Assembly (NCBI RefSeq): GCF_055900595.2
Contig: NZ_CM148325.1
Length of the DNA stretch: 64,000 bases
Reading direction: 5' to 3' (one strand)
Both the position numbers and the translations under genes were made by a program. The notes below the pieces were generated by a model. That model saw nothing but the letters and a program-made list of their open reading frames with translations, was not told the DNA's origin and made no database searches. This document shows positions 12,426 through 57,062 of this stretch, piece by piece; positions within the stretch are counted from its first letter, which is position 1, and every line of letters begins with the position of its first letter.

Positions 12426-12450
12426 TAAAAGCCTGCCTCGTGCACAAAAT

Positions 12451-12549
12451 GCCGGATGCGGCGTGAGCGCCTTACCCGGCCTACAAAATCTTGCTAATAC
12501 AAAATGTTGCATTATTGGCTGTAGGCCTGATAAGCGCTGCGCATCAGGC
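12451..12549. repeat. BIME: two inverted REP units
   Basis: GCCGGATGCGGCGTGAGCGCCTTACCCGGCCTACA (12451-12485) and the inverted unit TGTAGGCCTGATAAGCGCTGCGCATCAGGC (12520-12549) between convergent yaeF and nlpE. Confidence 0.85.
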
Positions 12550-12580
12550 AATTTTTCGTTTGTTTCTGTCTCACGATGGC

Positions 12581-14882: not shown

Positions 14883-14891
14883 TTGACTTTC

Positions 14892-14924
14892 GCCGGATGC
14901 GACGTTTGATGCGTCTTATCCGGC
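14892..14924. repeat. REP unit
   Basis: GCCGGATGCGACG...CGTCTTATCCGGC palindromic unit between convergent rof and tilS. Confidence 0.7.
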
Positions 14925-14934
14925 TTTCACTTAA

Positions 14935-53641: not shown

Positions 53642-54922
53642 ATGAGTAAGTCTGAAAATCTATACAGCGCAGCGCGCGAGCTGATCCCTGGCGGTGTGAA
53701 CTCCCCTGTTCGCGCCTTTACCGGCGTGGGCGGCACTCCACTGTTTATCGAAAAAGCGGACGGCGCTTATCTGTACGATGTTGATGGCAAAGCCTATATC
53801 GATTATGTCGGTTCCTGGGGGCCGATGGTGCTGGGCCATAACCATCCGGCGATCCGCAATGCCGTGATTGAAGCCGCCGAGCGTGGTTTAAGCTTTGGTG
53901 CACCGACCGAAATGGAAGTGAAAATGGCGCAACTGGTGACCGAACTGGTCCCGACCATGGATATGGTGCGCATGGTGAACTCCGGCACTGAAGCGACAAT
54001 GAGTGCCATCCGCCTGGCCCGCGGTTTTACCGGTCGCGACAAAATCATTAAATTTGAAGGTTGTTACCACGGTCACGCTGACTGCCTGCTGGTAAAAGCC
54101 GGTTCTGGCGCACTCACGTTAGGCCAGCCAAACTCGCCGGGCGTTCCGGCAGATTTCGCCAAACATACATTAACCTGTACTTATAACGATCTGGCCTCTG
54201 TACGCGCCGCGTTTGAGCAATACCCGCAAGAGATTGCCTGTATTATTGTCGAGCCAGTAGCAGGCAACATGAACTGTGTTCCGCCGCTGCCAGAGTTCCT
54301 ACCGGGTCTGCGCGCACTGTGCGACGAATTTGGCGCATTGCTGATCATCGATGAAGTGATGACCGGTTTCCGCGTGGCGCTGGCTGGCGCGCAGGATTAT
54401 TACGACGTGGTGCCAGACCTCACCTGCCTGGGCAAAATCATCGGCGGTGGAATGCCGGTAGGCGCATTCGGTGGTCGTCGTGATGTGATGGATGCGCTGG
54501 CCCCGACCGGTCCGGTCTATCAGGCGGGTACGCTTTCCGGTAACCCGATTGCGATGGCAGCCGGTTTCGCCTGTCTGAATGAAGTCGCGCAGCCGGGCGT
54601 TCACGAGACGCTGGATGAGCTGACAACACGTCTGGCAGAAGGTCTGCGGGAAGCGGCAGAAGAAGCGGGAATTCCATTGGTCGTTAACCATGTTGGCGGC
54701 ATGTTCGGTATTTTCTTTACCGACGCCGAGTCCGTGACGTGCTATCAGGATGTGATGGCCTGCGACGTCGAGCGCTTTAAGCGTTTCTTCCATATGATGC
54801 TGGACGAAGGTGTTTACCTGGCACCGTCAGCGTTTGAAGCGGGCTTTATGTCTGTGGCGCACAGCATGGAAGATATCAATAACACCATCGATGCTGCACG
54901 TCGGGTGTTTGCGAAGTTGTGA
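53642..54922 (+). CDS. hemL: Glutamate-1-semialdehyde 2,1-aminomutase
   Basis: 426-aa ORF, PLP-dependent class III aminotransferase. Confidence 0.96.
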
Positions 54923-54935
54923 TCCAGCATGGTTT

Positions 54936-55021
54936 GTCGGATGCGGCGTAAACGCCTTATCCGACCTACAGATCAGGACCGTTTGTAGGCCCGATAAGAC
55001 GCCACAGCGTCGCATCGGGCA
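54936..55021. repeat. BIME: two inverted REP units
   Basis: GTCGGATGCGGCGTAAACGCCTTATCCGACCTACA and inverted TGTAGGCCCGATAAGACGCCACAGCGTCGCATCGGGCA between convergent hemL and fhuB. Confidence 0.85.
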
Positions 55022-55079
55022 TCCGTTGCCGCGTAAAAGCTTTATCCATCCAGGAGTTAAGGGCCGTTATATGGAAAAA

Positions 55080-57062
55080 TTAACGGCTCTGCTTTCTCAA
55101 CAAATAGATAAAATACGGCGCGCCGATAAAGGTCGACAGCAGCCCCGCTGGGATCTGGAATGGAAACAGCACCATCCGCCCACACCAGTCAGCGAACACC
55201 AGCAGTAATCCCCCCACCAGCGCCGAAATCACAATATGCGGCATCGTCCGTCGAAAGCCCATCATCCGTGCGATATGCGGTGCCATCAGGCCAACAAAAC
55301 TCAACGGCCCGATGGTCATTGTCGCGGTCGCCGTCAGGCAAGCCGCCAGCAGCAGTAGCGCAATTCGCGTCGGCGTCAGCGCCATTCCCACGGCTCGTGC
55401 GGTATCACCTCCCAGCGGTAAAATGGTCAGCCAGCGGCGGCACAGCGGGGTAATCGCCAGCAAAATCACCATCACAATTCCGGTGCGCCAGACCTGCGCC
55501 TCGGTCGCGTTGTAGGTCGAACCGGAAATCCAGGTCAGAACTTGCGCCATTCGCGGGTCACCACTTGCCTGCAACATCATCAAAAGCATGGTGAACGCGG
55601 TACTTAACGCCATCCCCGCCAGTAACATGCGGTGTGGAGAAAATCCACCGCGTCCGGCGGCGATCATAATGATCAACAGCGTCACCGCCGCCCCGAGACT
55701 TCCCGCGGGTAACAGCCAGCCAAAGGCATTACCCGGCACCAGAAACAGCATTAACACCACGCCAAACGCCGCGCCGGAGCTAATCCCCAGCACTTCCGGG
55801 CTTGCCATCGGGTTGCCGGTCAGCCGCTGAATAATACAGCCCGCCACCGCCAGCATGACGCCCGCAAACAGCGCCGCCATAATTCGCGGCCAGCGCCAGG
55901 GCATCAAATCCTCGAGCAGCGCCCCGCTCGCCCACGTCCAGCCGTGCGCATCACGACCAAACGACAGCGCCACCACCACAGCAATTATCAGCAGCACACC
56001 GCCAGCAAGGGCAAACGCCAGCACATGTTGGCGTTCAGTCGCGACACGATCGTTGGCCTTCATATCCGGCGCACTGATGCTGCGTAAACGCGGCAGCAGC
56101 CACAGTAACAGCGGCGCACCTATCAACGCCGTCATCGAACCGGTAGAAACTTCCATCCACACGCGAGTCAGCCAGAGGATGATTTGATCGGAAAGCCAGA
56201 GGATCAGCGCACCAATCAGTGACGCCAGCAGCAGTCTTGGCAGCAGACGCCGCGCCCCCAGCATTTTTGCCAGCAGCGGCGCGAACAACCCGATAAAGCC
56301 GATAATCCCCACCGCGTTCACCAGCAGAGCACTGATGACTATCGCCAGCGACAGCGCCGCCAGACGCGCGAGCGATAAAGCCAGTCCGAGATTACGCGCC
56401 ACGCCATCATCAAGCCCCATCAGGGTTAATGGACGAAGTAGCAGTAACGTCAACATCACGCCGCCCAGCAGCTGTGGCCATAAACGCTCAACGCCGCCCC
56501 AGTCGGTTTGCGTCAGCGTTCCGGTACTCCACAGGAACATGCTTTGTAGCTGGTCGTGATGGAAGATAACCAGTAACTGATTGATTGCCCCGCAATAAAG
56601 GCTCACCACAAGCCCCGCGAGGATCAGCGTTACCGGAGAAAGCCGTTTCCCCCACGCGACGCCAAAGACAATTAAGCCAACCACACAAGCCCCTGCCAAT
56701 GCAGCAAACTGGCTCGCCATAGCACCAGGGATCGCCCAGAGCGTGGTGACGGTAATCCCCAGTTGCGCGCCTGTAGCAACGCCCAACGTGGTCGGTTCCG
56801 CCAGCGGGTTACGTAACACTTGCTGAAACAGCACGCCCACCAGTCCCAGACCCGCGCCCACCAGCAGCGAAATCGCCAGACGTGGCAGCAAGCTGTAGTG
56901 AAAAATCATCTGCTCGATGACGTCAATATCCGGCGACCAGGCAGCCTGCGCCCACTGGCTACGCGGCAGCGCCTGAGAGAAGTTCATCCAGGTGAGCACC
57001 GCTGCGGCAACCACCAACAGCGCCAGCAATAATGCCGGGAAAAGCGCAATACGTTTACTCAC
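55080..57062 (-). CDS. fhuB: Ferric hydroxamate ABC transporter permease (duplicated)
   Basis: 660-aa hydrophobic ORF with two FecCD-like halves. Confidence 0.95.
   Translation of the reverse strand: MSKRIALFPALLLALLVVAAAVLTWMNFSQALPRSQWAQAAWSPDIDVIEQMIFHYSLLPRLAISLLVGAGLGLVGVLFQQVLRNPLAEPTTLGVATGAQLGITVTTLWAIPGAMASQFAALAGACVVGLIVFGVAWGKRLSPVTLILAGLVVSLYCGAINQLLVIFHHDQLQSMFLWSTGTLTQTDWGGVERLWPQLLGGVMLTLLLLRPLTLMGLDDGVARNLGLALSLARLAALSLAIVISALLVNAVGIIGFIGLFAPLLAKMLGARRLLPRLLLASLIGALILWLSDQIILWLTRVWMEVSTGSMTALIGAPLLLWLLPRLRSISAPDMKANDRVATERQHVLAFALAGGVLLIIAVVVALSFGRDAHGWTWASGALLEDLMPWRWPRIMAALFAGVMLAVAGCIIQRLTGNPMASPEVLGISSGAAFGVVLMLFLVPGNAFGWLLPAGSLGAAVTLLIIMIAAGRGGFSPHRMLLAGMALSTAFTMLLMMLQASGDPRMAQVLTWISGSTYNATEAQVWRTGIVMVILLAITPLCRRWLTILPLGGDTARAVGMALTPTRIALLLLAACLTATATMTIGPLSFVGLMAPHIARMMGFRRTMPHIVISALVGGLLLVFADWCGRMVLFPFQIPAGLLSTFIGAPYFIYLLRKQSR

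What the first reader, a model, noticed from the sequence alone, without database searches (positions are those of the whole stretch)
54923..55079. BIME between convergent hemL and fhuB
Two inverted REP units fill most of the 157-bp gap. REP pairs are DNA gyrase/IHF targets and can stabilise upstream mRNA.
Basis: partly seen in the sequence, partly recalled or inferred. Interest (0 to 1): 0.15.

Follow-up and report, generated by a model that had tools for sequence, protein, structure and literature searches.

The report
Known REP pair (BIME-2) behind hemL
The gap between the convergent E. coli genes hemL and fhuB holds an ordinary, already catalogued kind of repeated palindromic element (a BIME made of REP hairpins), also present at this spot in K-12, so it is real but not new.

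Summary
The 157-bp gap (54923-55079) between hemL (+) and fhuB (-) holds two intact REP palindromes in inverse, tail-to-tail orientation. One is y-type (35 nt, 54935-54969) and one is z2-type (37 nt, 54985-55021), joined by a 15-nt linker.

This layout, y-S-z2 plus half a further repeat, is a BIME-2-type element. BIME-2 is the gyrase-associated class. The IHF-binding class is BIME-1, and the gap has no IHF consensus.

K-12 has the same 157-bp element, with 14 substitutions and none in the 48 stem bases. Only 1701 of 5426 complete E. coli genomes carry it. Another 3698 have an unrelated 34-bp GC hairpin, which is homologous to the Citrobacter gap and so probably ancestral. E. whittamii has 4.6 tandem copies.

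The most likely roles are 3'-end hairpins for both convergent mRNAs and a weak gyrase site, inherited from a RAYT-type selfish repeat. These roles are inferred for this locus and were not tested here.

The z2 unit exactly matches the IS621 bridge-RNA target, and IS621 sits in it in five genomes.

Verdict: ordinary, already known, low interest.

The parts
53642..54922 (+). hemL coding sequence (426 aa), stop TGA at 54920-54922
   Evidence: ORF list. RefSeq annotation of the identical stretch in strain EC42405.
54923..54934 (.). Left flank of the element (TCCAGCATGGTT). The K-12 gyrase cleavage site W3110:173599 maps to about 54925.
   Evidence: Identical in K-12.
54935..54969 (-). REP unit 1, y-type, 35 nt. 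GTAG-first orientation is on the - strand, so the + strand ends in CTAC at 54966-54969. The stem starts at 54936, 13 nt after the hemL stop codon.
   Evidence: 33/35 to the y consensus, with one compensated stem change. Folds at -19.2 (+ strand) and -18.8 (- strand) kcal/mol, z -5.9 and -5.5. Pattern hits.
54970..54984 (.). Short tail-to-tail linker (S-type, 15 nt, AGATCAGGACCGTTT) between CTAC and GTAG
   Evidence: 5 of the 14 differences from K-12 fall here. No IHF consensus.
54985..55021 (+). REP unit 2, z2-type, 37 nt, GTAG first. On the - strand, 54985-54995 reads ATCGGGCCTAC, the exact IS621 bridge-RNA target, with core CT = AG at 54987-54988.
   Evidence: 32/37 to the z2 consensus, with one compensated stem change. 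Folds at -22.1 and -22.5 kcal/mol, z about -5.9. IS621 is inserted at this dinucleotide in L004. Target specificity from PMC11208160.
55022..55054 (-). Decayed third unit, y-like. It lacks GTAG/CTAC (reads CAGG) and cannot form the REP hairpin.
   Evidence: Direct repeat D1, 72% to unit 1 at an 85-nt offset. 25/35 to the y consensus. Fold z 0.1 and 1.1. The corresponding unit is intact in E. whittamii and in L006.
55055..55068 (.). Remnant of a second S linker (AGTTAAGGGCCGTT against AGATCAGGACCGTT); the repeat array ends here
55060..55090 (-). Small weak hairpin (10-bp arms at 55060-55069 and 55081-55090, 11-nt loop) spanning the fhuB stop codon. It is formed only in the BIME allele.
   Evidence: Inverted repeat I5. 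Folds at -9.1 kcal/mol, z -3.9.
55080..57062 (-). fhuB coding sequence (660 aa); the stop TAA reads TTA at 55080-55082 on the + strand

Best explanation
This is a BIME-2-type bacterial interspersed mosaic element. It has one y and one z2 REP palindrome placed tail to tail across a 15-nt linker, followed by a mutated half-repeat. It lies in the 3' gap shared by the convergent genes hemL and fhuB.

Shown: its anatomy, its family assignment, its orthology to the K-12 element, and its presence/absence polymorphism.

Inferred origin: it is a copy of the REP/BIME family that the REP-associated tyrosine transposase (TnpAREP/RAYT) spreads and amplifies. Within Escherichia it replaced an ancestral 34-36-bp GC hairpin.

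Inferred action: both convergent transcripts run into two very stable hairpins (-19 and -22 kcal/mol on either strand). These would block 3'-5' exonucleases and attenuate read-through, which is the job the ancestral hairpin presumably did. Because the first stem begins 13 nt after the hemL stop codon, it could also slow termination of HemL translation. On DNA it is a plausible but modest gyrase site between two converging transcription units. IHF binding is not expected.
For: Anatomy and typing:
- Sequence and repeats.
- Unit typing at 33/35 (y) and 32/37 (z2), with lengths of 35 and 37 nt, the GTAG tetranucleotide and the AA-GC mismatch described in PMC8266576.
- BIME-2 is defined as y + z2 with a short linker, and BIME-1 as y + z1 with a long linker carrying the IHF site (PMC3333891).
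- Excess over chance.
- Hairpin stability on both strands.

Orthology:
- K-12 and W3110 have the same 157-bp gap. It differs at 14 positions, none in the 48 stem bases (P about 0.006 if the changes were independent).

Tandem-array nature:
- The E. whittamii ortholog has 4.6 copies of a 92-bp y-S-z2 unit with the same locus-specific stem changes and the same junctions.

Ancestral hairpin:
- 3698 of 5426 E. coli genomes have a 34-bp hairpin gap, which aligns with the Citrobacter gap better than all 2000 shuffles.

Gyrase:
- BIME-2 elements are enriched in gyrase cleavage sites in vivo (PMC6379681).
- A trusted oxolinic-acid cleavage site lies at W3110 173599, 2 nt inside the gap boundary next to hemL.

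Translation:
- REPs fewer than 16 nt from a stop codon are reported to lower translation (Liang et al. 2015, as summarised in PMC12306157).
Against: - No experiment on this locus's RNA was available, so the mRNA-stabilising, attenuating and translation-stalling roles are extrapolated from other REPs.
- The element is absent from 68% of E. coli genomes and its third unit has decayed, so any function is dispensable or replaceable.
- The K-12 gyrase site lies at the element's edge, not inside a REP loop. It is reproducible only with oxolinic acid (1 of 3 ciprofloxacin replicates, 0 of 3 microcin). A site within 157 bp is not very improbable by chance, roughly 0.03-0.08 at the reported site densities.
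- No RAYT gene was looked for in this genome.
- Conservation of the stems could reflect gene conversion among REP copies and not selection at this locus.
Confidence: 0.9

Rival explanations
1. It is a purely selfish or neutral passenger: a REP doublet left by RAYT activity or by recombination. It has no locus-specific function and is tolerated because any stable hairpin serves at this convergent junction.
For: - Presence/absence polymorphism, with 1701 BIME genomes against 3698 hairpin genomes.
- A decayed third unit.
- Copy number varies from 1.5 to 4.6 between Escherichia lineages.
- Non-stem positions diverge at 14/109, about the neutral rate implied by 4-5% divergence in the flanking genes.
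- Other Enterobacteriaceae carry unrelated palindromic repeats in the same gap.
Against: - There are no changes in the 48 stem bases between alleles that differ at 13% of the other positions.
- The element removed the ancestral hairpin and so must supply whatever 3'-end function that hairpin had.
- This reading is compatible with the best explanation on origin and differs only on present function.
Confidence: 0.35
2. It is an IHF-binding BIME (a RIP/RIB-type element) that bends DNA between the two genes, as the first reader's 'gyrase/IHF' wording allows.
For: Only the general fact that some BIMEs bind IHF (PMC3333891).
Against: - The second unit is z2 (37 nt), not z1 (29 nt).
- The linker is 15 nt, not the long L linker.
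- No WATCARNNNNTTR match within one mismatch lies in 54923-55079.
- A true BIME-1 with a 36-nt linker and an IHF-like site exists elsewhere in the same window, at 12450-12550, for comparison.
Confidence: 0.03
3. It is a canonical bidirectional intrinsic terminator or a small RNA gene, and not a repeat element.
For: - Strong hairpins on both strands.
- Sub-threshold Rfam hits to naRNA4, a REP-derived RNA family.
Against: - No hairpin-plus-T-run terminator on either strand.
- No promoter-like site.
- The naRNA4 scores of 31-40 bits are far below the 59.5-bit gathering score and simply reflect shared REP sequence.
- Related REP sequence occurs at a median of 6 places per E. coli genome by megablast.
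Confidence: 0.03

Closest known systems
The hemL-fhuB intergenic BIME of E. coli K-12 MG1655/W3110 (173445-173601)
   Same: Same locus, same 157-bp length, same y-S-z2-decayed-y layout, same junctions and the same locus-specific compensated stem changes. 91% identical.
   Different: 14 substitutions, all in loops, linkers or the decayed unit. The window's variant is the rarer one: at least 99% identical in 225 genomes, several named ST648, against about 1500 with the K-12-like variant.
BIME-2 family (y + z2 REPs, short S linker, tandem copies; gyrase-associated), as defined by Bachellier/Gilson and summarised in PMC3333891 and PMC6379681
   Same: Unit types, inverse tail-to-tail orientation, short linker, extragenic position, and tandem amplification in a sister species.
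   Different: Only one intact pair here, with the second repeat decayed. Gyrase cleavage in K-12 was detected beside the element and not inside the y unit.
BIME-1 / RIP-RIB elements (y + z1 with a long IHF-binding linker), for example the one at window 12450-12550
   Same: A pair of inverted REPs sharing the y unit and the GTAG/CTAC tails.
   Different: A z1 partner in place of z2, a 36-nt linker with an IHF-like site against 15 nt with none, and always single copy.
REP targets of IS621 (IS110-family bridge-RNA recombinase)
   Same: The z2 unit contains ATCGGGCCTAC, the specificity encoded by the wild-type IS621 target-binding loop. IS621 is inserted at its CT core in five E. coli genomes at this very locus.
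   Different: The window itself has no IS621 here. The most common natural target is ATCAGGCCTAC (PMC11208160).
REP325 / naRNA4 (Rfam RF02564)
   Same: Built from the same REP hairpins, which explains the weak Rfam hits.
   Different: Scores are well below the family threshold. There is no evidence of an HU-associated RNA from this locus.

Membership tests
E. coli REP (y / z2 types) | Imperfect palindrome of 30-40 nt matching the y, z1 or z2 consensus | tested here: met
   Unit 1 matches y at 33/35 and is 35 nt. Unit 2 matches z2 at 32/37 and is 37 nt. Expected lengths are from PMC8266576. Unit 3 reaches only 25/35 and does not fold.
E. coli REP (y / z2 types) | Conserved GTAG tetranucleotide 5' of the stem foot | tested here: met
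   CTAC at 54966-54969 (GTAG on the - strand) and GTAG at 54985-54988. Unit 3 reads CAGG, so the feature is not met for that unit.
E. coli REP (y / z2 types) | AA-GC mismatch interrupting the stem | tested here: met
   GAT-AA-GGCG...CGCC-GC-ATC in unit 1 and GAT-AA-GACGC...GCGTC-GC-ATC in unit 2. Both appear as internal loops in the folds. The feature is described in PMC8266576.
E. coli REP (y / z2 types) | Extragenic and highly repeated in the genome | tested here: met
   The element lies wholly between two stop codons. Two further REP loci occur in the same 64-kb window. The query finds a median of 6 places per E. coli genome by megablast. The full genomic copy number of this strain was not counted.
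BIME-2 | One y and one z2 REP in inverse orientation separated by a short linker | tested here: met
   y and z2 lie tail to tail with a 15-nt linker. Definition from PMC3333891.
BIME-2 | Occurs as tandem copies, with copy number varying between strains | tested here: met
   About 1.5 copies here, with the second decayed. The orthologous E. whittamii gap has 4.6 copies of a 92-bp unit.
BIME-2 | Bound and cleaved by DNA gyrase | tested here: inconclusive
   Published Topo-seq data for a W3110 derivative show a trusted oxolinic-acid cleavage site at 173599, at the edge of the orthologous element, and none inside the REPs. There are no data for this allele.
BIME-1 / IHF-binding RIP element | y + z1 units with a long conserved linker carrying an IHF site | tested here: not met
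   The partner unit is z2 and the linker is 15 nt. No IHF consensus within one mismatch lies in the gap.
RAYT/TnpAREP-mobilised repeat (REPtron-associated) | A cognate tnpAREP gene in the same genome, and cleavage that depends on GTAG and the stem mismatch | not tested
   Both recognition features (GTAG and the mismatch) are present in units 1 and 2. The transposase gene was not searched for, and cleavage cannot be tested with these tools.
Intrinsic (Rho-independent) terminator | GC-rich hairpin followed by a T run | tested here: not met
   No such site on either strand in 54600-55400, nor in the hairpin allele.
naRNA4 (Rfam RF02564) | Score at or above the family gathering threshold | tested here: not met
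   Best scores are 39.9, 35.5 and 31.4 bits against a threshold of 59.5.

The most novel reading that the evidence does not exclude
The BIME-2 and the ancestral 34-bp hairpin may be two old, interchangeable 3'-end cassettes at the hemL/fhuB junction. They would persist as a trans-species polymorphism across Escherichia and set hemL (haem synthesis) and fhuB (iron uptake) expression, or local supercoiling, differently. They would then be alleles under selection, not a neutral repeat insertion.
Probability: 0.1. Interest if true: 0.35.

Novelty: already known. Interest (0 to 1): 0.1.

Why it matters
It matters little as a discovery. REP/BIME elements have been known since the 1980s, and this one is present in K-12.

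Its practical value is for annotation. The gap should be labelled as a BIME-2-type repeat with three units, one of them decayed, and not as a terminator, an sRNA or an IHF site.

Two side observations are mildly useful:
- The locus is a clean natural case in which a BIME replaced an ancestral hairpin, splitting E. coli 31%/68%. It could serve as a ready-made allelic pair for testing what REPs do to convergent transcripts.
- Its z2 unit is a perfect natural landing site for the IS621 bridge recombinase, and it is occupied in a few clinical isolates.

Tried and rejected
- Rfam scan of the region: only sub-threshold naRNA4 hits, explained by REP similarity.
- Promoter and terminator scans of both alleles: nothing found.
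- IHF consensus search: no site in the gap.
- The K-12 RefSeq feature table as served by the tool lists no repeat_region, so the official REP number for this locus could not be quoted.
- Liang et al. 2015, its 2016 follow-up and Choi et al. 2003 are not held. The 15-nt rule is therefore cited second-hand from PMC12306157, and IS621 targeting from PMC11208160.
- No paper in the library mentions hemL, fhuB and REPs together. The names hemL and fhuB are absent from the supplements of the gyrase and IS621 papers, and the TnpAREP paper has no supplement held as text. The gyrase datum had to be found by coordinate.
It recovered E. whittamii, two other Escherichia lineages, Citrobacter, Leclercia, Kosakonia and Superficieibacter, but not E. 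albertii, E. fergusonii or E. marmotae. The order of events within Escherichia stays open.
- Elevated mutation in the BIME was considered as the cause of the 9% divergence from K-12 and rejected. The flanking genes differ by 4-5%, so the non-stem positions diverge at about the neutral rate.
- Independent insertions in different lineages were considered and rejected, because all BIME alleles share the same junctions and the same compensated stem changes.

Full report
**Observation.** The window has a 426-aa ORF on the + strand ending at 54922 and a 660-aa ORF on the - strand starting at 55080. A bovine E. coli genome (EC42405) is 100% identical over 357 bp here, and RefSeq annotates the two ORFs there as hemL and fhuB.

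Within the gap, 54935-54969 reads TGTCGGATGCGGCGTAAACGCCTTATCCGACCTAC, and 54985-55021 reads GTAGGCCCGATAAGACGCCACAGCGTCGCATCGGGCA. Each is an imperfect palindrome, and the two are inverted copies of each other. A REP core pattern finds 3 matches in the window against 0.00 expected, with two in this gap. The tail motif CTTATCNGNCCTAC finds 4 against 0.07 expected, again with two here. Each unit folds as a single hairpin on either strand, at -18.8 to -22.5 kcal/mol with z between -5.5 and -5.9. The whole gap folds better than all 200 shuffles on both strands.

**Anatomy.** I compared the units with the three E. coli REP consensus sequences printed in the methods of PMC11208160. Unit 1 is y-type (33/35) and unit 2 is z2-type (32/37). 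Their lengths, 35 and 37 nt, the GTAG tetranucleotide at the stem foot and the AA-GC mismatch in the stem are the features listed for y and z2 in PMC8266576. Each unit differs from its consensus by one compensated pair: C-G to T-A in unit 1 and T-A to C-G in unit 2. The two units lie tail to tail (CTAC, then 15 nt, then GTAG).

Positions 55022-55068 are a 72% direct repeat of 54937-54983. This is a y-like unit (25/35 to consensus) that has lost its GTAG/CTAC and its stem complementarity and does not fold (z 0.1 and 1.1). It is followed by a copy of most of the linker.

The orthologous gap of E. whittamii explains the layout. It holds 4.6 tandem copies of a 92-bp unit made of y, the 15-nt linker, z2 and 5 further nt, with the same junctions to hemL and fhuB. 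The window's element is thus about one and a half repeats of a BIME-2 array, with the last half decayed. The intact units plus linker occupy 87 of 157 bp, and all REP-derived sequence occupies 134 of 157 bp.

**Which kind of BIME.** PMC3333891 defines BIME-1 as y + z1 with a long conserved linker that often carries an IHF site. It defines BIME-2 as y + z2 with a short linker, occurring in tandem copies whose number varies between strains. This element meets the BIME-2 definition.

It does not meet the BIME-1 definition. The partner unit is z2, the linker is 15 nt, and no IHF consensus (WATCARNNNNTTR, up to one mismatch) falls inside the gap. The same window contains a real BIME-1 at 12450-12550 for comparison, with y, a 36-nt linker carrying an IHF-like site, and z1. 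The 'gyrase target' half fits the subtype, because BIME-2 elements are enriched in gyrase cleavage sites in vivo (PMC6379681).

**Comparison with K-12 and the species.** MG1655 and W3110 have the same 157-bp gap at 173445-173601. It differs from the window at 14 positions:
- 1 in the loop of unit 1
- 5 in the linker
- 2 in the loop of unit 2
- 3 in the decayed unit
- 3 in the linker remnant

None of the 14 lies in the 48 stem bases (P about 0.006 if the changes were independent). The 540-545 nt of hemL and fhuB on either side differ by about 3.7-5%. The 13% divergence at non-stem positions is therefore about what neutral sites would show. Only the stems look constrained, either by selection or by conversion from other REP copies.

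Across 5426 complete E. coli genomes:
- 1701 carry the BIME allele. The window's variant is at least 99% identical in 225 of them, including strains named ST648, and most of the rest are K-12-like.
- 3698 carry a completely different 34-bp gap, TGATTTTGCCTCGCCCACCGGGCGAGGCATTCAA, which is a 10-bp GC hairpin.
- The remaining 27 match neither query at full coverage. At least five of them have an IS621 insertion at this locus.

Two Citrobacter species have a 36-bp gap with the same GCCTCGCC/GGCGAGGC stem, and the alignment beats all 2000 shuffles. The hairpin is therefore probably the ancestral state, and the BIME replaced it within Escherichia.

All BIME alleles share junctions and the locus-specific stem changes: the window, K-12, Escherichia sp. 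E1V33, the divergent strain SCPM-O-B-8794 and E. whittamii. This points to a single origin.

One point is not explained. Flank divergence does not follow allele state, since K-12's flanks are closer to a hairpin strain than to the window. In addition, all three non-coli Escherichia lineages recovered have the BIME. This needs either an old polymorphism or short-tract recombination.

**How it most likely works.**

*Shown:* either convergent transcript that reads into the gap meets two very stable hairpins. There is no hairpin-plus-T-run terminator and no promoter-like site.

*Inferred from the family:* REP hairpins protect upstream mRNA from 3' exonucleases, and BIMEs attenuate transcription. 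These functions are cited in the introductions of PMC2817692, PMC3733652 and PMC8266576. Since the BIME removed the ancestral hairpin, it presumably does that hairpin's job.

*Translation:* the y stem begins 13 nt after the hemL stop codon. REPs fewer than 16 nt from a stop codon were reported to lower translation by stalling ribosomes (Liang et al. 2015, as summarised in PMC12306157). That could apply to HemL. The ancestral hairpin is even closer to the stop codon, so this may not distinguish the alleles.

*Gyrase:* the only locus-specific datum comes from the supplementary tables of PMC6379681. They list a trusted oxolinic-acid cleavage site at W3110 173599. It is seen in all three oxolinic-acid replicates, one of three ciprofloxacin replicates and no microcin replicate. 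The site is 2 nt inside the gap next to the hemL stop and about 10 nt from the y stem, corresponding to window position 54925. No site lies inside the REPs. The strain's Mu SGS cassette lies far downstream, so the coordinates are unshifted. This is weak support, because a site within any given 157 bp is not rare at the reported densities.

**Other known families considered.** Rfam gives only sub-threshold hits to naRNA4, a REP-derived RNA, at 31-40 bits against a threshold of 59.5. The intrinsic-terminator and IHF-element definitions are not met.

**Side finding.** On the - strand the z2 unit reads ATCGGGCCTAC. This is exactly the specificity encoded by the wild-type IS621 bridge-RNA target-binding loop (PMC11208160 main text and supplement). 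In strain 22AR0322 an IS621 copy sits in this very REP of the K-12-type allele, flanked on both sides by the AG (= CT) core dinucleotide. Five genomes share that exact junction. This agrees with the known REP targeting of IS621 and adds nothing new in kind.

**Verdict.** The feature is real, correctly located and correctly named. It is a BIME-2-type element with a decayed third unit, already present in K-12. It is absent from two thirds of E. coli, where the older hairpin remains. Novelty: already known. Interest: low.

Noticed in passing
L004 3101-4536 (E. coli 22AR0322); corresponds to window 54987-54988: An IS621 (IS110-family, bridge-RNA recombinase) copy is inserted in the z2 REP of the hemL-fhuB BIME, flanked by the AG/CT core. 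Five of 5426 genomes share the exact junction. The window's z2 unit is an exact match to the IS621 target-binding-loop specificity ATCGGGCCTAC.
   Followed up: yes
L002 601-634 (E. coli ST70) and 3698 of 5426 genomes: Most E. coli genomes have no BIME here. They have an unrelated 34-bp gap with a 10-bp GC hairpin, homologous to the Citrobacter gap, so the BIME replaced an ancestral hairpin.
   Followed up: yes
L014 3690-4111 (E. whittamii): The orthologous gap is 440 bp and holds 4.6 tandem copies of a 92-bp y-linker-z2 unit. This shows that the window's third unit is the decayed start of a second repeat.
   Followed up: yes
window 12450-12550: A BIME-1-type pair: a y unit, a 36-nt linker with an IHF-like site (12484-12496, - strand, one mismatch), and a z1 unit.
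   Followed up: partly
window 14890-14925: A solitary z2-like palindrome (CGCCGGATGCGACGTTTGATGCGTCTTATCCGGC) with no recognisable GTAG/CTAC tail.
   Followed up: no
L005, L009, L012, L015 (Superficieibacter, Leclercia, Kosakonia), gap downstream of hemL: Other Enterobacteriaceae carry different palindromic repeats (CCCTCTCCC...GGGAGAGGG-type and others) in the same hemL/fhuB convergent gap. The site appears to be a recurrent landing place for palindromic elements.
   Followed up: no
window 54382-54922 and 55080-55619 against K-12 and ST70: Flanking-gene divergence does not follow allele state. K-12 (BIME) is closer to ST70 (hairpin), with 14+16 differences in 2 x 540 nt, than to the window (BIME), with 20+27. 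This implies an old polymorphism or short-tract recombination at the gap.
   Followed up: partly
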